The notes beneath the pieces are model-generated. The model was not told the origin of the DNA. It made no database searches and saw only the letters and a program-made list of their open reading frames with translations. Positions 1,638 through 35,811 of a stretch of 64,000 nt of DNA are shown here, in pieces. The DNA is taken from IMG/VR virus record IMGVR_UViG_3300047373_000743, positions 10,240 to 74,239 of that record; one strand, given 5' to 3'. This stretch comes from a virus. Position 1 is the stretch's first letter, and every line of letters begins with the position of its first letter. The position numbers were made by a program, and so were the translations under genes.

Positions 1638-1657
1638 TAAGTTTTCGATTCAGTGTT

Positions 1658-1665
1658 ATATTTAT
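1658..1665 (+). promoter_or_regulatory. ATATTTAT putative late promoter box
   Basis: Recurrent intergenic motif; here upstream of the hsp20 leader. Confidence 0.6.
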
Positions 1666-1669
1666 ATTA

Positions 1670-1720
1670 TGAGCAATGCTCAAACGAGATTGCTCAACGG
1701 ATGCCCAATCTGGGGTTCGT
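1670..1720 (+). promoter_or_regulatory. Two tandem hairpins in the hsp20 5' leader
   Basis: TGAGCAAT-G-CTC-AAAC-GAG-ATTGCTCA (1670-1696) and ACGGATGCCCA-ATC-TGGGGTTCGT (1697-1720, with G-U pairs). Confidence 0.5.
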
Positions 1721-1742
1721 AACTCAAATAGGAATAAATAAA

Positions 1743-2240
1743 ATGAAAAACTACGGATTAAATAAGTCCAATGGAACAGGACTTGGTAAACACGTTCCAA
1801 ATTTAAGAGACGAATTTTTAACCCCATTCGACTCTATTTTTGACAAGATGGTCAATCAAGCATTTCCAAACTTCGGACAGGAATTCGGAGTAAACTTTTT
1901 TGGAAATAGTTCATACCCGAGAGTAAATGTTGCAGACACAAGCAAAGAAGTTAGAATCGAGGCAGAAATCGCAGGTCTTGGAAAAGAAGATGTATCTGTT
2001 GAATATGAAGATGGTATGCTTACGATTGCTGGTGACAAGAAAGTGGAAATTGAAGACCCAGACGTAAAGTATGTTTACAAAGAACTCAAGCGGTCTTCTT
2101 TTAAAAGATCATTTAAAGTTGATGACTCAACTTTAAATGTAAACAAGATTTCCGCAAAGTTTGACAACGGAATTCTAAATGTTACTATTCCAAAAAAAGA
2201 AGTAATTGAAACAAAAGCAAAAAAGGTAAAAATTCTTTAA
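1743..2240 (+). CDS. hsp20: Small heat-shock protein Hsp20 (alpha-crystallin domain)
   Basis: YPRVNV..IEAEIAGLGKEDVSV..LTIAG..SFKRSF..AKFDNGILNVTIPK. Start set at ATG 1743 after AGGA. Confidence 0.93.
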   Translation: MKNYGLNKSNGTGLGKHVPNLRDEFLTPFDSIFDKMVNQAFPNFGQEFGVNFFGNSSYPRVNVADTSKEVRIEAEIAGLGKEDVSVEYEDGMLTIAGDKKVEIEDPDVKYVYKELKRSSFKRSFKVDDSTLNVNKISAKFDNGILNVTIPKKEVIETKAKKVKIL

Positions 2241-29051: not shown

Positions 29052-29582
29052 ATGTCAGAAAATCAAATTTCCCTTGGACTTGATATTAGTTCAACCGTTG
29101 TAGGATATTGTGCGTCAATTTCCAAAGAAAAAGTAATTGATGCGGGGTATATCGATATACACAAAGAATCGAGTATTAAGAATAAAGCACACGCACTTGC
29201 AAGATATCTTGACCCCCGTTCAATTGACCCACATATTATAATAGTTGAAGATTCTTTGAGTGGATTCGGAGGGGGTCGAACGAGTCAACAAACGATTGTA
29301 AAACTCGCAAAGTGCAACGCAGTAATAAGTTATGTAATAGAGGCTTTGTATGAAGTAGAAGTCAATCATGTAAATGTATCAACTTTACGCAAAGCAGTAT
29401 TAGGAAAAAGTCGTGAACAAGGAGTTGATAGTAAAACTTTTGTACGTGAACAACTTGAAAAAAAGATTGATTTAAATGAATTTATTGTCTATAATAGTAG
29501 AAAAAATTATGATAAAAGGAACTACGATATGTTGGACGCAACGGTAGCATCGCTATATCATTGGTATACTATTGACAATTGA
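29052..29582 (+). CDS. RuvC-like Holliday junction resolvase
   Basis: LGLDISSTVVG, IIVED and YDMLDA catalytic acidic motifs. Confidence 0.8.
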   Translation: MSENQISLGLDISSTVVGYCASISKEKVIDAGYIDIHKESSIKNKAHALARYLDPRSIDPHIIIVEDSLSGFGGGRTSQQTIVKLAKCNAVISYVIEALYEVEVNHVNVSTLRKAVLGKSREQGVDSKTFVREQLEKKIDLNEFIVYNSRKNYDKRNYDMLDATVASLYHWYTIDN

Positions 29583-30508
29583 TGGGGATTTCCGAGCAAA
29601 AGTTATATGCCTTGTTGCAGAAGGTGTTAGGTGAAGGTAAAATCGTCTCTAAAGACGAAGCAATGTTTGTGTGTCCGTTTTCTCATCACCGTAAACCAAA
29701 GTTAGCAGTTAATCTTACAACACAACGTTGGCAAAGTTGGATTGATACAAATGCCAAAGGTCGTAGCATTTTTTCGTTATTCAAAAGAATGCAGGTTCCA
29801 AGCAATTATTTTGCAGAGTTATCCAAAATTGTCAAACTTCCAAAAAATACCAAACTTGCAGATACTGAAGAGCAATTTGTATCATTGCCCTATGAATTTA
29901 AAAGATTGACTGAAACACATACCGATTTTTCTTATTCTAAAGCAATGAGGTATTTAAAAAATCGTGGGATTGAATCATACGATATTGAAAGATACGATAT
30001 AGGATATTGTGATAAAGGAGATTATGTGGGTCGTATCATCGTTCCTTCATTTGATGCAGACAACAAATTAAATTACTTTCTTGCAAGGGATTTTACAGGT
30101 ACTGCTTATTTGAAATACAAAAATCCACCAGTGAGCAAAGATGTGGTTGTATTCGAAAACCAAATAGATTTCTCTGAACCTTTGATTTTATGCGAAGGTG
30201 TTTTTGACGCGATGGCAATTCGCAGAAATGCAATTGCTTTACTCGGAAAAAATATTCCAAGCAAACTTAAAATGCGTTTAATAGAACATGATGTAAAGGA
30301 AGTTAGTATTGTATTAGATAATGATGCGTATAAAAACGCATTATATATATCAGAAACTTTAATGAACGATAATATAAAAGTAAAATTGGTCAGAATGGGA
30401 AATGAAGACGCAGCCGATTTGGGATTTAACAAAATTATTCATAAAATCAGAGAAACTAATCTTCTTGATTTTAGTGAATTGATGAAACAAAAATTATGCA
30501 TGAATTAA
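29582..30508 (+). CDS. DNA primase (DnaG/Toprim)
   Basis: YLKNRGI, RIIVP, KYKNP, LCEGVFDAM, ALLGK and VLDND. Confidence 0.88.
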   Translation: MGISEQKLYALLQKVLGEGKIVSKDEAMFVCPFSHHRKPKLAVNLTTQRWQSWIDTNAKGRSIFSLFKRMQVPSNYFAELSKIVKLPKNTKLADTEEQFVSLPYEFKRLTETHTDFSYSKAMRYLKNRGIESYDIERYDIGYCDKGDYVGRIIVPSFDADNKLNYFLARDFTGTAYLKYKNPPVSKDVVVFENQIDFSEPLILCEGVFDAMAIRRNAIALLGKNIPSKLKMRLIEHDVKEVSIVLDNDAYKNALYISETLMNDNIKVKLVRMGNEDAADLGFNKIIHKIRETNLLDFSELMKQKLCMN

Positions 30509-31200
30509 AAACTAATTTAAAGAATGTAGAAAAAGTATATCATTTGGCAGATATTCATATAAGAAATGTTAAACGACATACAGAATACTCGTTAGTGTTT
30601 GAAAACTTCTATAAACAGGTAAAAAAAGACAACTATGACAATGCAATAATTTTTATAGGTGGGGATATTGCTCATGCTAAGACAGAAATGAGTCCTGAGT
30701 TAATTCATCAAATATCTTCATTTTTAAGAGAGTGCTCAAAGCTCCATCCGACAATTGTAATTGCTGGTAACCACGATTGTAATCTAAATAATCCTGATCG
30801 TCTTGATGTATTATCTCCTATTATGGATATGATGGATGATGATAATCTTTTTTATCTTAAAAATAGTGGTTTATATAAAATAGGTGACGTTGCATTTGGG
30901 GTGTTTAGTATATTAGATGATCCAGAGAACTACATTTCGGGTCTGGATATAAACGATCCAAGTATTAAAACCAAAATTGCAGTTTATCATGGTGCAGTAA
31001 AACGTAGTATGACAGACATCGGGTATGTTGTCATGGGTGGTGACATTGAACTTCCTATGTTCAACGGGTATGACATTGTTATGTTGGGTGACATTCACAA
31101 ACACCAAGTATTACAGGAATATCAATCAGAACATAAATTTATTCCAGAAGATAAAGTAGATGAATATAAACTAAAGGGGTGGTGTTTAGCAGATGACTAG
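30496..31200 (+). CDS. SbcD/Mre11/gp47-like nuclease, N-terminal fragment
   Basis: Phosphoesterase motifs LADIH, GGDIAH, AGNHD, YHG and LGDIHK. The following YxGS motif is absent and lies in ORF 32118. Confidence 0.85.
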   Translation: MHELKTNLKNVEKVYHLADIHIRNVKRHTEYSLVFENFYKQVKKDNYDNAIIFIGGDIAHAKTEMSPELIHQISSFLRECSKLHPTIVIAGNHDCNLNNPDRLDVLSPIMDMMDDDNLFYLKNSGLYKIGDVAFGVFSILDDPENYISGLDINDPSIKTKIAVYHGAVKRSMTDIGYVVMGGDIELPMFNGYDIVMLGDIHKHQVLQEYQSEHKFIPEDKVDEYKLKGWCLADD

Positions 31201-32131
31201 TATATTAATCAGATGTAGAAACATTCACATCGGTGATGTTATTTTTTGTAGTAGTGTCGCAAAAAAGTTAAAAGAAAAAAATCCCAATTGTATTGTTCAC
31301 TTTGATGTTAATTATCTACAACCTATAGAGTTGTTGACAAACAACCCATACATTGATGAAGTTTACTATAAAGAAAATGCGAATATAGAGTATGATGTTG
31401 TGCATGATGTAATGAATGAAGATGTATCTACACTTAGTCCATATGAGTCAGCGGTATCTCAGTTTCAACGTATGTGTGGAATTGAAAATTTCGACGATAC
31501 CTTTGAAGTTTTTACAAATCCCCAACTTGATTATTCTATACAAAAAAGCATGGACGAGTTGACACAGATAGGAGATTGGGAATCTGACTTAGTTAAAATA
31601 GGTTATCAAGTTGATTGGGATAGAAAAAGTTTTTTATTTACTGAGGATCAGTATAATCGTGCAGAGGGTGGTGAAGACGGAACTGGATATGGAACTGGTA
31701 AAAGAAATATTTTTGATATAATAAAGTCTATGGAACTTTCACCAAAAGTTATGTTGTTTGCACTTGGTATAGAAGATACTATTTCAAAAAACTATCCATG
31801 TTTAAACTCAACAAGTAAATTTTCATTTACTGCAAGTTTAATGAAAAACTGCGATTATGTTGTGGGTGGTGAGGGGTGTCTTACTAATATATCATCTGCT
31901 CTTGGTACAAACACAATAATAACCACCGATTATATCCACCAAATGTTCGGACCAAAAGGAATATTGTGGCAACAAAATGGGGGTAGTGTAAATAATCTAG
32001 AAACAAGAATTCCGTATTTAGGACCTTGTAAATATTTTCCAAATGATAATCATGTTCACCTGAGTCCGTTTTTAACTGATTGCGAAGTAGGAGAACAAAT
32101 TTTAGAAACTGCATTAAATGGACGAAGTTAA
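31193..32131 (+). CDS. GT9-like (heptosyltransferase-fold) glycosyltransferase inserted in the nuclease gene
   Basis: HIGDVIF..KKLKEKNP..LLTNNPYIDEV; ASLMKNCDYVVGGEG..ISSALGTNTI. Confidence 0.72.
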   Translation: MTSILIRCRNIHIGDVIFCSSVAKKLKEKNPNCIVHFDVNYLQPIELLTNNPYIDEVYYKENANIEYDVVHDVMNEDVSTLSPYESAVSQFQRMCGIENFDDTFEVFTNPQLDYSIQKSMDELTQIGDWESDLVKIGYQVDWDRKSFLFTEDQYNRAEGGEDGTGYGTGKRNIFDIIKSMELSPKVMLFALGIEDTISKNYPCLNSTSKFSFTASLMKNCDYVVGGEGCLTNISSALGTNTIITTDYIHQMFGPKGILWQQNGGSVNNLETRIPYLGPCKYFPNDNHVHLSPFLTDCEVGEQILETALNGRS

Positions 32132-34721
32132 AGAAAAATATGTAAAGATAAAAAGGCATAATCAGAATAAACCAATCGTAGTTTATTCCGGAAGTATGAT
32201 TCAACAAAACCACGGTGAAAAACCGTATGGTCATGGCTATGCATTGTGGGATTTACCGACACGTGAACATACCCACCACGAAGTTCATAATGATTATGGA
32301 TATTATACAATCGAAGTGCGTGACGGAGAGTGTGTCAGTGATTTGAGTAAGTTACCAAAAAAAGCAAGACTTCGTGTAAAGGTATACAACACAACTGCAA
32401 CGGAAACAAAGGAAATAATTGCAGACATTCGCAAGCGAACAAGTATAAGTGATTTAAATGTAACAAGGTGTGATGCTATATCAGAAGCTAAAAAGTTTGA
32501 TCGTGATAATAAATTCGACTTTGGTGATATATCACTGGTTCAAGTTCAAAATGAGTTGATCGAAGATTATCTTCGTAGAAATTTTGTCGTAGAGGATGAT
32601 CAAGTTCAAACCGCACTTGATATAAACAAAGAAGTGAATGATAAGTTGGTTGTAAAGGAAGTTCTTAGGAATTGTATTTGGAAACCCAAGAAGTTTGAGT
32701 TTGGTAATATGTTCAGTTACGGAGATGCAAATGTAGTTGATTTTACTAACATGAAAAGTGTTATGGGATTGTTTGCCTCAAATGCAAGTGGTAAAAGTAG
32801 TGTAATGAGTGCATTAAGTTTTTGTTTATTTGACAAATGTGATAGAGCATTCAAAGCAGCCCATGTACTTAACACACAAACAGACTCTTTTTACTGCAAA
32901 TTAAATTTTGAAATTTCTGGAGTAAATTATTACATAGATAGAACTGCAACTACCAAAAAAAATGGTGATGTAACTGTCGTGGTTGACTTTTGGAAGCTAG
33001 ATGAAGACGGCCAACAAGTATCTCTAAACGGTGAACAACGAGCAGGAACAAATGCTTCTATTCGTGACCACGTCGGTTCATATGATGATTTTGTATTAAC
33101 AACACTGAGTTTGCAAAACAATAATGCAATTTTTATAGACAAAAGTCAAAGTGAAAGAAAGGATCTGCTTGCTCAGTTTATGGGCATTGATACATTTGAT
33201 CAACTACATTCAACCGCATCTGAAGACATCAAGGAAATTAATGCTTTGTTGAAACGATTTAATCGTGAAGATTTTGATGAAACATTATCTGAAATCCAAG
33301 AAAAACTTGATGATGTCAAAACTAGATATACTGAACAGGATAGTAAAACTAATGTGGCACTACTTGAGCAGAAACGTTTCAATAAACAATTATCAGATAA
33401 AAACTCTCAATTTAAGAATTGTTCTTTTGACGAATCATCGGTGGACATAGACAAACTTGAGTTTACTAAAAAGAACTTACAAGAGCGACTAGAAGTTGCT
33501 GAAGAAAATAGAAATGGTGAATCGGATAGAAAAAAACAATTAGTAACGAAAAGAAAAACTAAATCAACAGAGTTATCTGCGTTAGATGGTATAGAAGAAA
33601 AGTATGTTGAGGTTTTAAAAATACGTGAAGACATAACTTTGGTTGAAAAAGACTTAGCAGTTCTTCGTACTTCTGTAAATGCTAAATTAGACAAACTCAA
33701 ACACTATGATTGTCATGAGTATGATCCTGAGTGTAAGTTTTGCGTAACTAATTCAAAAAATCTTATAGAAAGTGCTTCGCAAACAAAAGAAGAACTTGAC
33801 AAAGATAAAGCAGCTGCTGATGATCTTGTAACACAAAAAAATGAATTGTTAAAAATACTAGATGAATGTAAAGATGTTGAATCAAAATATGAAAAACTAG
33901 GTGAGTTAAAATCCACAACAACTCAACTTACATATGAAATAAATGAAGCAGACTCTAAGGTGCTTGCATTATCTAGTATGATAGAATCGTTGGAAAAGGA
34001 TATTGTTATCAACGATAAAAATATAGAATCATATTACGAATGCAAGGACATCATAGAGTTTAATAAAAAACTGCAAGTAGATGTAAATGAAATTGAAACC
34101 AAACTAATTACGATAAATAATGTAGCAGATACGGAAACAGAAAAACTTCAAACTTTATTTGGTGAAGTTAAAATTGCTGAAAAAGAACACGAAGACATTT
34201 TGGCATCCATCGAGGAAGCAAAAAGTTACGAACGAAAAAAACGTGGTTACGAATTATATTTAGACGCAGTTAAACGTGACGGTATTTCATATGAACTTAT
34301 TTCCAAAACAATTCCAAGTATTGAAAGTGAAGTTAATAACATTCTTTCTCAAATTGTTGATTTTGGTATGCAACTTGAAATGGACGGAAAACACATCTAT
34401 TCAAAGATTACATATGAAGATCGTCATTGGCCTTTAGAAATGTGTAGTGGAATGGAACGTTTCATTAGCAGTATCGCAATGCGAGTAGCACTTATCAATG
34501 TAAGTAGTTTACCACGTTCCAATTTCCTTGTTATTGACGAAGGATGGGGTTCGTTAGACGGAGACAACATAAGTAGTGTATTTAATCTGTTTACCTATCT
34601 AAAAGGGCAGTTTGAGTTCATAATGGTTATAAGTCATTTGGATGTGATGAGAGATATGGTGGACGAGATTATAGAAATTCAAAAAGAAGGTTCTTTTAGT
34701 AAGATAAAATACGAAGCATAA
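32118..34721 (+). CDS. SbcD C-terminal fragment fused to SbcC/Rad50/gp46 ATPase
   Basis: YSGSMIQQNHGE..HGY..WD (SbcD end); Walker A ASNASGKSS; coiled coil; zinc hook CKFC; signature CSGME; Walker B VIDEGWGSLD; ISH. Confidence 0.9.
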   Translation: MDEVKEKYVKIKRHNQNKPIVVYSGSMIQQNHGEKPYGHGYALWDLPTREHTHHEVHNDYGYYTIEVRDGECVSDLSKLPKKARLRVKVYNTTATETKEIIADIRKRTSISDLNVTRCDAISEAKKFDRDNKFDFGDISLVQVQNELIEDYLRRNFVVEDDQVQTALDINKEVNDKLVVKEVLRNCIWKPKKFEFGNMFSYGDANVVDFTNMKSVMGLFASNASGKSSVMSALSFCLFDKCDRAFKAAHVLNTQTDSFYCKLNFEISGVNYYIDRTATTKKNGDVTVVVDFWKLDEDGQQVSLNGEQRAGTNASIRDHVGSYDDFVLTTLSLQNNNAIFIDKSQSERKDLLAQFMGIDTFDQLHSTASEDIKEINALLKRFNREDFDETLSEIQEKLDDVKTRYTEQDSKTNVALLEQKRFNKQLSDKNSQFKNCSFDESSVDIDKLEFTKKNLQERLEVAEENRNGESDRKKQLVTKRKTKSTELSALDGIEEKYVEVLKIREDITLVEKDLAVLRTSVNAKLDKLKHYDCHEYDPECKFCVTNSKNLIESASQTKEELDKDKAAADDLVTQKNELLKILDECKDVESKYEKLGELKSTTTQLTYEINEADSKVLALSSMIESLEKDIVINDKNIESYYECKDIIEFNKKLQVDVNEIETKLITINNVADTETEKLQTLFGEVKIAEKEHEDILASIEEAKSYERKKRGYELYLDAVKRDGISYELISKTIPSIESEVNNILSQIVDFGMQLEMDGKHIYSKITYEDRHWPLEMCSGMERFISSIAMRVALINVSSLPRSNFLVIDEGWGSLDGDNISSVFNLFTYLKGQFEFIMVISHLDVMRDMVDEIIEIQKEGSFSKIKYEA

Positions 34722-34736
34722 AACATATTTAGATAT

Positions 34737-34744
34737 ATATTTAT
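34737..34744 (+). promoter_or_regulatory. ATATTTAT putative late promoter box
   Basis: Heads the 34.7-41.4 kb cluster. Confidence 0.6.
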
Positions 34745-34764
34745 TATGTACCTGAAGTGTATTT

Positions 34765-35811
34765 ATGGAAAATTCCGAAGAAAACCAAGAAGCCCAAGAA
34801 GAAACCCTTATTAAAGCAGGATTGCGTAAAGGGTATTTCACACTCGTTGAAGGGGTATACGATCCTGGTATTTTGAAGGCAGTATTTTTAGCAGGTGGCC
34901 CTGGTGCAGGTAAATCAGCAGTTGTAGACACTGTTTTTAATACTACACCCGAAGTAAAGTCATTAACATCATCGGGACTAAAAATTGTCAATAGTGATAG
35001 TTCATTTGAATACCTTCTAAAAAAAGCAGGACATAGTTTAGACTTGGGTTCACTTGACGATGAAGTATTTCAGCAAATAACAAGTGATGATCCGAATTCA
35101 ATTCGGTCACGTGCCAAAAACATTATGCTTAAACAATACGAGAATTACAAGGATGGTAGATTGGGTGTAATTATTGATGGAACTGGTGATGATTATTCTA
35201 AGATTTCAAAGCAAAAGAAAGAGTTGGAAAAACTTGGTTATGATTGTTATATGGTATTTGTTAATACAACACTCGAAGTTGCACAACAACGAAATGCTTT
35301 CCGTGCAAGAAAACTTCCACGAAAAATTGTAGATACAATATGGAAAGATGTTCAAAAGAATATGGGAAAATTTCAAAGTTCCTTCAAGCAAAATTTCACG
35401 ATTATAGATAACTCAGAAGATTTAAGAAGTAAAACAAAACCAGGTAAACTTGACCTCGCTCCATTTATATTGAAAGCAACTGCAAGATTCGTTGCAAAAC
35501 CAATTCGCAATCCTATTGGTAAACAATGGATTACTTTGATGATGAAACACGATAAAATGAACAAGAGTGGTGATAAAAGAAATCGTGTTAATGAAGAACT
35601 TGATATGATATCAATGGAAAGTGTGATTCTTCCTATGGATTTAGAACGACATTTAAGTCGTTCAATTCATGTTATCAACAAGTTCAAGTTAAATGAAAAA
35701 AGAAATTTGGCAGTGCTAACTAGGTTAATTGAAAGTCTCAATTTAAATAGAAATCAAATAAACAAGTATTTTCATCAACTCAGAACTTTAAAATTTAGAG
35801 GAGAGAAATAG
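34765..35811 (+). CDS. P-loop kinase (PNK/zeta-toxin/AAA_33-like)
   Basis: FLAGGPGAGKS, VNSD, IIDGTG and FVNTTLEVAQQRNAFR. Confidence 0.78.
   Translation: MENSEENQEAQEETLIKAGLRKGYFTLVEGVYDPGILKAVFLAGGPGAGKSAVVDTVFNTTPEVKSLTSSGLKIVNSDSSFEYLLKKAGHSLDLGSLDDEVFQQITSDDPNSIRSRAKNIMLKQYENYKDGRLGVIIDGTGDDYSKISKQKKELEKLGYDCYMVFVNTTLEVAQQRNAFRARKLPRKIVDTIWKDVQKNMGKFQSSFKQNFTIIDNSEDLRSKTKPGKLDLAPFILKATARFVAKPIRNPIGKQWITLMMKHDKMNKSGDKRNRVNEELDMISMESVILPMDLERHLSRSIHVINKFKLNEKRNLAVLTRLIESLNLNRNQINKYFHQLRTLKFRGEK

What the first reader, a model, noticed from the sequence alone, without database searches (positions are those of the whole stretch)
30496..34721. SbcD/gp47 nuclease split inside its catalytic domain by a glycosyltransferase gene, with complementary terminal peptides
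Seen: ORF 30496 carries the phosphoesterase motifs up to GDIHK and then ends ...EYQSEHKFIPEDKVDEYKLKGWCLADD. ORF 32118 starts MDEVKEKYVKIKRHNQNKPIV and supplies the missing YSGS..QQNHGE motif before running into a complete Rad50/gp46 ATPase. A GT9-like gene sits between them, overlapping both (8 and 14 nt), which implies translational coupling. Known: in SbcD/Mre11 only about 10 residues separate GHxH from YxGS, and split phage enzymes that reassemble non-covalently exist (e.g. Aeh1 NrdA interrupted by mobE). Inference: the extra peptides form one small beta-alpha-beta + beta domain (EHKFIP/helix/GWCL plus VKIKR) whose hairpin loop is the break point. They would act as a non-splicing reassembly clasp that turns a core gene into a cargo-gene landing site. 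The passenger here is a glycosyltransferase rather than a homing endonuclease.
Basis: partly seen in the sequence, partly recalled or inferred. Interest (0 to 1): 0.8.

Follow-up and report, generated by a model that had tools for sequence, protein, structure and literature searches.

The report
Fractured phage SbcD-SbcC nuclease holding glycosyltransferase
A marine phage's fused SbcD-SbcC (Mre11-Rad50) repair nuclease is broken in two at a known hot spot for selfish homing-endonuclease genes, but here the gap holds a sugar-transferase gene, and short conserved peptides at the break probably help the two pieces reassemble.

Summary
ORFs N (30496-31200), M (31193-32131) and C (32118-34721) exist with 8-nt and 14-nt overlaps, in the same order in all of about 45 related IMG/VR contigs.

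- **Ancestral form:** the family is normally one fused SbcD-SbcC ORF of about 1050 aa with a short hairpin after GDIH.
- **Split alleles:** they are widespread. All carry a conserved ~25-aa tail (E-x5-Y-x3-GW) and a 9-14-aa head (K-I-K-I-x-R/K). Almost all unsplit alleles lack both.
- **Mobility:** split and unsplit alleles interleave on the tree. One 97%-identical pair differs almost only next to the insert.
- **Occupants elsewhere:** Vsr/DUF559-like, TnsA-like, HNH-like (by eye) or LAGLIDADG endonuclease genes, unknown ORFs, or nothing.
- **Occupant here:** M has a GT-B fold closest to GT9. Its distant homologues lie in phage sugar-biosynthesis clusters.
- **Tail and head:** both are under purifying selection and lie in the predicted N-C interface.

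This is not new in kind. Dassa et al. 2009 described one SbcD-like locus split by a Vsr-like endonuclease with 25+9 extra residues. Crona et al. 2011 showed that such tails are essential in split NrdA.

New here are the non-nuclease cargo, the scale, the co-conversion signature and a re-fused allele. I file it as a new variant of a known kind.

The parts
30496..31200 (+). N fragment: SbcD/Mre11-type phosphoesterase core with motifs I-V (all metal ligands), 234 aa
   Evidence: ORF. Pfam PF00149 and phrog_100. Profile hits to solved SbcD/Mre11 structures. Motif coordinates. dN/dS 0.08.
31123..31197 (+). Tail peptide (N residues 210-234), absent from unsplit alleles; invariant E218, Y224, G228, W229
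   Evidence: Alignments. Unsplit junctions. dN/dS 0.09. Residues 205-218, 221, 224, 227-232 and 234 lie in the predicted interface.
31193..32131 (+). M: passenger gene, GT-B fold glycosyltransferase-like protein closest to GT9, 312 aa; overlaps N by 8 nt and C by 14 nt
   Evidence: ORF. Conserved alignment. AF2 model with pLDDT 78. Foldseek GT9 hits. Distant homologues in sugar clusters.
32118..34721 (+). C fragment: head peptide, rest of the SbcD nuclease and capping domain, and a complete SbcC/Rad50 ATPase, 867 aa
   Evidence: ORF. phrog_77 (E 1.4e-44). Motifs. The unsplit profile aligns across the junction to SbcD 7dog.
32118..32159 (+). Head peptide (C residues 1-14), absent from unsplit alleles; K-I/V-K-I/V-x-R/K core
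   Evidence: Alignment. Heads of other split lineages. dN/dS 0.20. Residues 6-28 lie in the predicted interface.
32160..32612 (+). Remaining SbcD part: second hairpin strand, YSGS, QQNHGE, last core strands and capping domain (C residues 15 to about 165)
   Evidence: Aligned to unsplit relatives. Lowest-error contacts are N 12-16 with C 41-46 and N 194-197 with C 21-23.
32613..34718 (+). SbcC/Rad50 part: Walker A 32781-32801, zinc hook CKFC 33732-33743, signature 34446-34463, Walker B/D-loop 34530-34559

Best explanation
The locus encodes a two-piece SbcD-SbcC (Mre11-Rad50) nuclease derived from a single fused gene. A free-standing homing-endonuclease gene invaded the DNA that encodes the beta-hairpin after phosphoesterase motif V. 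The mobile segment brought coding sequence for a ~25-aa C-terminal tail on the upstream piece and a 9-14-aa N-terminal head on the downstream piece. N holds all metal ligands. C supplies the last core strands, the capping domain and the Rad50 ATPase. The two pieces reassemble without splicing by rebuilding the phosphoesterase fold, and the tail and head probably pack together as a small strand-helix-strand unit that stabilises the junction. In the ancestor of this marine phage clade the endonuclease gene was replaced by M, a GT9-like GT-B glycosyltransferase taken from a phage sugar-modification gene set. M is now fixed between the halves, with ATGA-type overlaps that suggest coupled translation.

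Shown: the anatomy, the conservation, the distribution, the interleaved phylogeny and the fold of M. Inferred: non-covalent assembly, the clasp role of the peptides, replacement of a nuclease gene by M, and translational coupling.
For: (1) The unsplit fused ORF of about 1050 aa is the common form. All 80 best loci are unsplit, as is Microcystis phage Mel-JY01.
(2) The tail occurs in 98 of 120 short homologues. A tail-motif scan found 47 further split loci. Their heads were not part of the search pattern, yet all read M-x-K-K-I-K-I-x-R/K-K.
(3) The collected alleles were 233 unsplit with a short loop, 143 split and 2 unsplit with the insert, the last two being one contig fetched twice.
(4) The N-core tree needs 16-17 changes between split and unsplit, at least 8 of them forced by starred branches. 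P0069 (split) and L053 (unsplit) are 97% identical over 195 aa, and 5 of the 6 differences lie in the last 15 residues before the insert, as expected from co-conversion during homing.
(5) Occupants at the same site:
- Vsr/DUF559 (L277, above the Pfam cut-off)
- TnsA-like (L273, above the cut-off)
- LAGLIDADG (L335, above the cut-off)
- DUF7487 (L347 above the cut-off; L282 and L300 below)
- homing-endonuclease PHROGs (L131, L277)
- phrog_12224 of unknown function (L348)
- nothing, with only 3-80 nt between stop and start (L279, L298, L311, L346 and others)
(6) dN/dS is 0.09 for the tail and 0.20 for the head, against 0.08 for the N core and 0.05 for C.
(7) Complex model of N with C residues 1-170: ipSAE 0.89, best of 3 controls 0.00. 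This mark was reached by 58 of 80 solved complexes and 2 of 110 mismatched pairs; the counts hold only roughly because my own alignments were used. The runs agree in at least 86% of contacts and the partner's pLDDT is at least 74. The interface includes tail residues 205-234 and head residues 6-18. These are halves of one known fold, so the pass may reflect likeness to solved Mre11/SbcD structures.
(8) M: AF2 pLDDT 78 and Foldseek top hits to GT9 enzymes. Homologues at 35-39% identity lie among PfkB kinase, NAD-dependent epimerase, GT2 and GT7-like genes.
(9) No Rfam family matches. RNA-library contigs show no joint that skips M, and one contig runs unbroken across the N/M junction.
Against: No experiment shows that N and C bind or that the nuclease is active. 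The complex score could come from memory of solved Mre11 folds. The model of the contiguous insert (L050) is low-confidence across the insert (pLDDT 46-52), so the clasp's fold is not established. In split Aeh1 NrdA the tails were not needed for heterodimer formation but for higher-order assembly (section heading), so 'clasp' may be too simple. No intermediate holds both M and a nuclease gene, so replacement is inferred, not seen. The sampling of split and unsplit alleles was shaped by my search patterns. RNA libraries can contain DNA, so one search is weak evidence.
Confidence: 0.7

Rival explanations
1. The tail and head have no assembly role. They are what the mobile DNA needed to supply a stop codon, a ribosome-binding site and a start codon, and to destroy the endonuclease's target site (self-immunity). 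The two halves associate only through the split phosphoesterase fold.
For: The lowest-error contacts of the complex model are core strands (N 12-16 with C 41-46, N 194-197 with C 21-23), not the peptides. In L050 a TnsA-like endonuclease gene lies just upstream of an unsplit gene that keeps the insert, which fits an immunity role for the insert. The insert is modelled with low confidence.
Against: The tail has dN/dS 0.09, as low as the catalytic core. E218, Y224, G228 and W229 are invariant across lineages whose cores are only 36-45% identical. Heads are alike in lineages with different or no passengers. The peptides persist where no endonuclease gene remains. In NrdA, analogous tails are essential (PMC3045599).
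Confidence: 0.17
2. M's position is adaptive, not opportunistic. The glycosyltransferase works with the nuclease, for example by modifying phage DNA or the enzyme itself, and being nested in the operon ensures co-expression.
For: The N-M-C order and both overlaps are kept in all of about 45 related contigs. M is well conserved, with 71% mean column identity.
Against: Distant M homologues lie in sugar-nucleotide and glycan gene clusters, not next to nucleases. The same site holds selfish nuclease genes, unknown ORFs or nothing in other lineages. M's divergence is uncoupled from that of C (Spearman -0.01, against 0.62 for N versus C), so M has been exchanged independently.
Confidence: 0.08
3. 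One polypeptide is restored at the RNA or ribosome level: M lies in a self-splicing intron, or the ribosome bypasses it.
For: Endonuclease genes often live in group I introns. Vsr-like genes occur in recA introns (PMC2677866).
Against: No Rfam match at E up to 1 except one chance-level sRNA hit. M overlaps both neighbours, leaving no non-coding intron core. The tail and head evolve as coding sequence. Passenger-less alleles have only 3-15 nt between stop and start. No skipping joint is seen in four RNA libraries, and one contig crosses the N/M junction unspliced. Known bypasses skip tens of bases, not 936 (PMC2677866 discussion).
Confidence: 0.03
4. The tail and head are a degenerate split intein that still ligates N and C by protein trans-splicing.
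For: Most 'fractured genes' of Dassa et al. carry split inteins around the same endonuclease family. The window's head contains ...RHN, which resembles an intein C-terminus.
Against: Together the peptides have about 39 residues, far below an intein fold. HN is not conserved (RLN or RHC in clade relatives; absent in other lineages). The following residue is Q/A/P, not C/S/T. Dassa et al. themselves found no intein in their SbcD-like locus.
Confidence: 0.02

Closest known systems
[quoted passage not shown]
   Same: An SbcD-like gene broken in two with a gene in between and no intein. There are 25 extra C-terminal residues on the upstream ORF and 9 extra N-terminal residues on the downstream ORF, flanked by consecutive conserved SbcD motifs. 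The intervening ORF overlaps the downstream part. The endonuclease-bearing relatives found here (L277, L295, L347 and others) are the same kind of locus.
   Different: In the window the intervening gene is a GT-B glycosyltransferase-like gene, not a Vsr-like endonuclease, and it overlaps both neighbours. The paper had one locus and gave the extra residues no role. Here there are more than 90 loci, at least three further nuclease types, empty sites, a re-fused allele and evidence of repeated gain or loss.
Split NrdA of Aeromonas phage Aeh1 with mobE (Friedrich et al. 2007; Crona et al. 2011, NAR 39:1381, PMC3045599)
   Same: An essential phage enzyme is fragmented inside a catalytic domain by a free-standing endonuclease gene. 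Unique C- and N-terminal tails arose with the insertion. The authors predicted that such tails exist in other fragmented genes.
   Different: The enzyme, the tails and the endonuclease (HNH MobE) are different. In NrdA the need for the tails was shown biochemically. Here it is inferred from conservation and a model. The SbcD tail/head pair is conserved across many divergent lineages, which was not known for NrdA.
Mre11/Rad50 (SbcD/SbcC) fusion proteins of Mimivirus R555 and aquatic viruses (Yoshida, Claverie, Ogata 2011, PMC3175470)
   Same: Nuclease and ATPase lie in one polypeptide, and such fusions are abundant in aquatic viral metagenomes. The unsplit relatives here are such fusions.
   Different: Whether this phage family is the R555 lineage was not tested. 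The window's gene is a fusion that has been re-split at a different place, inside the nuclease domain.
GT9 heptosyltransferases (WaaC, WaaF, TibC; PDB 2gt1, 1psw, 4rap, 3tov)
   Same: The predicted two-Rossmann GT-B fold of M matches these best (Foldseek E 7e-9 to 7e-6). Distant M homologues lie beside a PfkB sugar kinase and NAD-dependent epimerases.
   Different: There is no Pfam Glyco_transf_9 hit, sequence identity to the structures is 9-14%, and TM-scores are only 0.45-0.57. Donor, acceptor and catalytic residues are unknown.

Membership tests
SbcD/Mre11 nuclease (calcineurin-like phosphoesterase) | Five phosphoesterase motifs carrying the metal ligands | tested here: met
   All five lie in N: DIH 19-21, GDIAH 56-60, GNHD 91-94, H165, GDIH 198-201. 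PF00149 scores 32.7 bits against a cut-off of 21.5. The profile hits SbcD/Mre11 structures at E 6e-9.
SbcD/Mre11 nuclease (calcineurin-like phosphoesterase) | Contiguous nuclease and capping domain in one chain | tested here: not met
   The chain is broken between motif V and YSGS; the rest lies in C residues 15 to about 165. The locus is therefore a split member.
SbcC/Rad50 ATPase | Walker A, coiled coil with CxxC zinc hook, signature motif, Walker B/D-loop | tested here: met
   NASGKSS 222-228, CKFC 539-542, SGMERF 777-782, VIDEGWGSLD 805-814. phrog_77 E 1.4e-44. Pfam SMC_N scores 27.6 bits, below its cut-off of 40.
Fractured gene sensu Dassa et al. 2009 | Conserved enzyme gene broken in two with a free-standing gene between the halves | tested here: met
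Fractured gene sensu Dassa et al. 2009 | The intervening gene is a homing endonuclease | tested here: not met
   M has a GT-B fold and matches no nuclease family. The feature is met in relatives of other lineages.
Fractured gene sensu Dassa et al. 2009 | Split intein halves flank the break | tested here: not met
   About 25 + 14 residues only, no conserved HN plus C/S/T, no N-terminal Cys/Ser block. The same was reported for their SbcD-like exception.
Tail-assisted assembly of a fragmented enzyme (Aeh1 NrdA type, Crona et al. 2011) | Tails are unique to the split allele and absent from intact homologues | tested here: met
   Unsplit junctions lack them. All split alleles found have them, although the set was selected by the tail motif.
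Tail-assisted assembly of a fragmented enzyme (Aeh1 NrdA type, Crona et al. 2011) | Tails are required for activity or assembly | not testable with these tools
   Only indirect support: dN/dS 0.09 and 0.20 and the interface in the model.
GT9 glycosyltransferase (heptosyltransferase) | GT-B fold with closest structural neighbours in GT9 | tested here: met
   Foldseek hits to 3tov, 1psw and 2gt1 with probability 1.00 and E 7e-9 to 1e-6.
GT9 glycosyltransferase (heptosyltransferase) | Sequence membership in the Pfam Glyco_transf_9 model | tested here: not met
   No Pfam family at E up to 0.01. The M profile against PDB sequences gives 3tov at E 0.22.
GT9 glycosyltransferase (heptosyltransferase) | Use of ADP-heptose as donor | not testable with these tools
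   Context only: distant homologues lie next to a PfkB kinase and epimerases. No such genes lie in the 74-kb record.
Group I/II intron | Ribozyme core detectable around the inserted ORF | tested here: not met
   Rfam scan of 30000-35000 at E up to 1 gave no intron family. No non-coding space is left.

The most novel reading that the evidence does not exclude
The tail/head pair is a portable heterodimerising module carried by the mobile DNA. It travels with the endonuclease gene by co-conversion and makes breakage of an essential gene harmless. This leaves a permanent neutral slot inside the gene that later hosts unrelated cargo, such as the glycosyltransferase here or phrog_12224 in L348, and that can be exchanged by recombination between the conserved halves. 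It would be a third, protein-level route beside introns and inteins by which selfish DNA neutralises its insertion. The module would also be a natural split-protein assembly tag.
Probability: 0.4. Interest if true: 0.7.

Novelty: new variant of a known kind. Interest (0 to 1): 0.55.

Why it matters
Genes fractured by homing endonucleases are known, and one SbcD-like case with the same extra residues was printed in 2009. It was a single metagenomic locus with no follow-up.

This window and its relatives show three things:
- The SbcD split is a large, mobile and old system with a conserved pair of junction peptides.
- Several nuclease classes that share one DNA-binding module compete for the same site.
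- The slot can be emptied, re-fused in frame, or taken over by an ordinary metabolic gene.

That gives a natural series for testing how a broken essential enzyme is reassembled without splicing. It offers a candidate short peptide pair for engineered split proteins. It is also an example of how a selfish element's scar becomes a place where phages store and swap cargo genes.

Tried and rejected
A short motif with gap notation was accepted.
- **Phage-collection searches.** blastn and tblastn against the phage collection gave almost nothing for the locus or for M. Only Mel-JY01 and one 484-kb uncultured phage hold relatives of N.
- **Mixed alignment.** An alignment of the unsplit allele with separate N and C fragments misplaced the tails and heads and was not used for folding.
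- **DUF7210 lead.** 31 of the 78 motif hits are not SbcD. A few are small phage proteins with a head-like strand followed by a tail-like motif, and one matches Pfam DUF7210 below its cut-off (E 9e-5). The SbcD tails and the L050 insert give no DUF7210 hit. Those proteins were picked by the motif itself, so this remains a lead only.
- **Sugar-nucleotide genes.** No sugar-nucleotide genes lie in the 74-kb record. That record is only about 37% complete, so this shows nothing.
- **RNA libraries.** Contigs cover the stretch only in patches. Uncovered parts are no evidence.
- **Rejected readings.** Intein, intron and bypass readings were considered and rejected, as set out under the rival explanations.

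Full report
**1. Observation**

One search lists three + strand ORFs: N 30496-31200 (234 aa), M 31193-32131 (312 aa) and C 32118-34721 (867 aa). N's stop overlaps M's start by 8 nt, and M's stop overlaps C's start by 14 nt.

N matches Pfam Metallophos (32.7 bits, cut-off 21.5) and phrog_100 'SbcD-like'. It holds all five phosphoesterase motifs up to GDIH at residues 198-201.

C begins with a 14-residue peptide, then the second hairpin strand, YSGS and QQNHGE. From about residue 166 it matches phrog_77 'SbcC-like' (E 1.4e-44). It has Walker A, a CKFC zinc hook, the signature motif and Walker B.

M has no Pfam or PHROG hit. GC content is even across the three genes.

**2. The arrangement is real and inherited**

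Two IMG/VR scans returned 48 loci. Every locus that holds the region has N, M and C in the same order, in the same relative frames and with the same overlaps. Identities to the window are 66-100% for N, 50-97% for M and 70-99% for C. Fourteen DNA runs from many studies hold half or more of the stretch. Misassembly is excluded.

M is a well-conserved gene with 71% mean column identity.

**3. What the unbroken gene looks like**

Homologues of N of up to 410 aa include unsplit proteins that read straight from GDIHKRQ through a short loop into YAGS...QQNHGE, and on into the SbcC N-terminus (P0102, P0113, P0119).

All 80 best IMG/VR loci found with a family alignment encode one ORF of about 1050 aa. 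More than 585 candidate loci exist. The cultured Microcystis phage Mel-JY01 has the same single ORF.

A profile of these proteins aligns across the junction to solved SbcD (7dog), where about ten residues separate the motif-V histidine from YSGS. So the ancestral state is a fused SbcD-SbcC with a short hairpin. Such Mre11/Rad50 fusions are known from aquatic viruses (PMC3175470).

**4. The extra peptides go with the split**

Of 120 short homologues, 98 end soon after GDIH with a tail of the form QEY-x-EE-x-h-E-h-D/N-E-x5-Y-h-x2-G-W. A scan of IMG/VR for a short degenerate version of this motif gave 78 hits, of which 47 follow GDIH in an SbcD N fragment.

The downstream fragments were not part of the pattern. 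All of them start with M-x-K-K-I-K-I/L-x-R/K-K-P just before Y-x-G-S.

In the window clade the tail reads E-H-R/K-F-I-P-E-x-K-x-D-x-Y-K-L-x-G-W and the head reads M-E-D-K-E-x-Y-I/V-K-I/V-K-R-H-N. E218, Y224, G228 and W229 are invariant across all lineages aligned, although their cores are only 36-45% identical to the window's.

Among all alleles collected, 233 were unsplit with a short loop, 143 were split and 2 were unsplit with the insert. Those two are one contig fetched twice (L050 = L129). It carries a tail-like and a head-like segment contiguously, about 40 residues in all.

Within the window clade, dN/dS is 0.09 for the tail and 0.20 for the head. It is 0.08 for the N core and 0.05 for the rest of C. 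Codons shared with M were left out, and dS is near saturation.

**5. The split is mobile**

On a tree of N cores (84 rows, junction excluded), split and unsplit alleles are interleaved. The tree needs 16-17 changes of state, and at least 8 are forced by starred branches.

The clearest pair is P0069 (split) and L053 (unsplit). They are 97% identical over 195 residues. Five of the six differences lie in the last 15 residues before the insert, where P0069 reads like other split lineages. This is what co-conversion of flanking sequence during endonuclease-driven homing would leave.

**6. What sits in the gap elsewhere**

In a 484-kb uncultured phage (LR756508) the gap holds a 305-aa zinc-finger protein with a TnsA-like PD-(D/E)xK domain, PF08722 above its cut-off.

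Among the 47 loci plus this one, 30 passengers form one BLAST cluster through shared Cys-rich/NUMOD-type N-termini. Their C-terminal nuclease domains differ:
- Vsr/DUF559 (L277 above the cut-off; L295, L347 and others)
- TnsA-like (L273, L285, L306, L315, L343)
- an HNH-like motif seen by eye only (L309, L336)

Other occupants are:
- a LAGLIDADG enzyme in L335 (above the cut-off)
- a phrog_12224 protein of unknown function in L348
- an unknown ORF in L296
- a 46-aa Vsr-like remnant in L303

Thirteen loci have no passenger. In some, the stop and start are only 3-15 nt apart (L279/L308/L332, L298, L311/L349). In others the genes overlap (L291, L346), and in others a 226-336-nt non-coding gap remains (L314, L328, L307).

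The site is therefore first of all a homing-endonuclease target. The endonuclease gene can be lost while the split and its peptides stay.

**7. The passenger here**

An AlphaFold2 model of M from 16 homologues has mean pLDDT 78 and pTM 0.79, with two Rossmann-like halves. Foldseek against the PDB ranks a GT9 enzyme from Veillonella (3tov, E 7e-9) first, then WaaF, WaaC and TibC. More distant GT-B enzymes follow. TM-scores are 0.45-0.57, as expected when the two lobes are hinged differently. At the sequence level the link is weak (3tov E 0.22).

The M family has 133 clusters, all unnamed. Members at 35-39% identity lie in other phage contigs inside sugar clusters. Their neighbours are a PfkB kinase, two NAD-dependent epimerase/dehydratases, GT2 and GT7-like transferases and a cupin.

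More complete relatives of the window phage (130-170 kb, 65-84% complete) have an epimerase and GT2 genes 40-50 kb away from the SbcD locus. So M is a glycosyltransferase of a phage glycan toolkit that has come to lie in the SbcD gap. Its donor and acceptor are unknown.

Within the clade, M's divergence is uncoupled from that of C (Spearman -0.01; N versus C 0.62). M of L032/L033 is 79-81% identical to the M of the window, L002, L004 and L015, while N and C are 65-71% identical. This points to exchange of M between lineages.

**8. Do the pieces fit together**

The complex prediction used N with C residues 1-170, each supplied as a 24-row alignment.
- The score was ipSAE 0.89, and the best of 3 controls scored 0.00.
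- The mark was reached by 58 of 80 solved complexes and 2 of 110 mismatched pairs. These counts hold only roughly, because my own alignments were used.
- The runs agree in at least 86% of contacts, and the partner's pLDDT is at least 74.

The lowest-error contacts rebuild the phosphoesterase sheet: N 12-16 with C 41-46, and N 194-197 with C 21-23. The interface also includes tail residues 205-218, 221, 224, 227-232 and 234, and head residues 6-18.

These are halves of a fold with solved structures, so the pass shows likeness and does not show binding.

A model of the contiguous L050 allele puts a strand (208-212), a helix (216-223), the GW, a short helix and a strand (241-245) in the insert. 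The pLDDT there is only 46-52.

**9. Alternatives**

Rfam finds no intron, and there is no non-coding room for one. The peptides evolve as protein. Passenger-less alleles leave no space for an intron or a bypass element.

Four RNA libraries show no joint skipping M. One 240-nt contig with no mismatch crosses the N/M junction (31020-31259). This is weak evidence, since RNA libraries can contain DNA.

A split intein is excluded by size and by the lack of the conserved junction residues.

**10. What is known already**

Dassa et al. 2009 (PMC2677866) searched GOS data for Vsr-like endonuclease genes inside coding regions. [quoted passage not shown] It had no intein. [quoted passage not shown] That is this system.

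Crona et al. 2011 (PMC3045599) showed that tails created by the mobE insertion are essential for the split Aeh1 NrdA. They suggested this may be a general way to neutralise gene fragmentation.

**11. What is new**

- A non-nuclease cargo gene is fixed in the gap in a whole marine phage clade.
- The split occurs in at least about 90 IMG/VR loci and about 100 protein clusters.
- The tail/head pair is conserved.
- Several nuclease classes on a shared DNA-binding module use one site.
- Empty sites and a re-fused allele exist.
- A co-conversion signature is visible between a near-identical split and unsplit pair.

**12. Verdict**

I file the locus as a new variant of a known kind, with interest 0.55.

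Noticed in passing
L050:6131-6955 and L050:6962-10255: In the only unsplit allele that keeps the insert, a 274-aa zinc-finger/TnsA-like endonuclease gene of the same family as the passengers lies immediately upstream of the SbcD-SbcC gene, between it and the primase gene. This suggests the endonuclease moved out, or the halves re-fused, with the insert perhaps acting as target-site immunity.
   Followed up: partly
L282, L285/L290/L351, L306/L340, L315, L327, L343: In several lineages the downstream fragment is only 72-76 aa (head, YxGS-equivalent, QQNFGE, then a stop) and is followed by unrelated genes. The same split, tail, head and endonuclease therefore also occur where the C piece is tiny and not fused to SbcC.
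   Followed up: no
L352-L360: Phage sugar-biosynthesis clusters hold M-like GT-B genes, a PfkB kinase with a heptose-kinase-like N-terminus (by eye), two NAD-dependent epimerases, a cupin, GT2 and GT7-like transferases and methyltransferase-like ORFs.
   Followed up: partly
L286:900-1100, L299:1264-1518, L338:10451-10636, L316:2962-3198: Small phage proteins of 60-85 aa start with a head-like basic strand (MKIKL, MKVYK) and continue into a tail-like E-h-x-E-x5-Y-h-x2-GW motif. L286 matches Pfam DUF7210 below its cut-off (E 9e-5). This could be the autonomous domain from which the clasp derives, in permuted order. The proteins were picked by the motif, and the SbcD tails give no DUF7210 hit.
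   Followed up: partly
window 31193-32131 versus 30496-31200 and 32118-34721, across L001-L048: M's pairwise identities do not follow those of its flanks. L032/L033 share an M that is 79-81% identical to those of the window, L002, L004 and L015, but N and C that are only 65-71% identical. This points to recombination that swaps M between lineages, with the conserved halves as boundaries.
   Followed up: partly
P0092: A 292-aa metagenomic protein joins an SbcD N core, just after GDIHKQQ, to a peptide-deformylase-like C-terminus (Pfam PF01327 precomputed). The contig is only 965 bases, so this is either a chimeric assembly or another event at the same hot spot.
   Followed up: no
window 34765-35811: The ORF just downstream of C is a 348-aa P-loop kinase-like protein (Pfam Zeta_toxin E 1e-11, AAA_33; phrog_12810).
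   Followed up: no
window 1653-2240: A phage-encoded Hsp20/alpha-crystallin family protein (PF00011, E 1e-18).
   Followed up: no
window 29052-30508: A RuvC-like resolvase (phrog_159) and a DnaG-type primase (phrog_47, Toprim) lie directly upstream. The primase stop overlaps the N start by 13 nt. The primase-SbcD order is kept in LR756508, L050 and Mel-JY01.
   Followed up: partly
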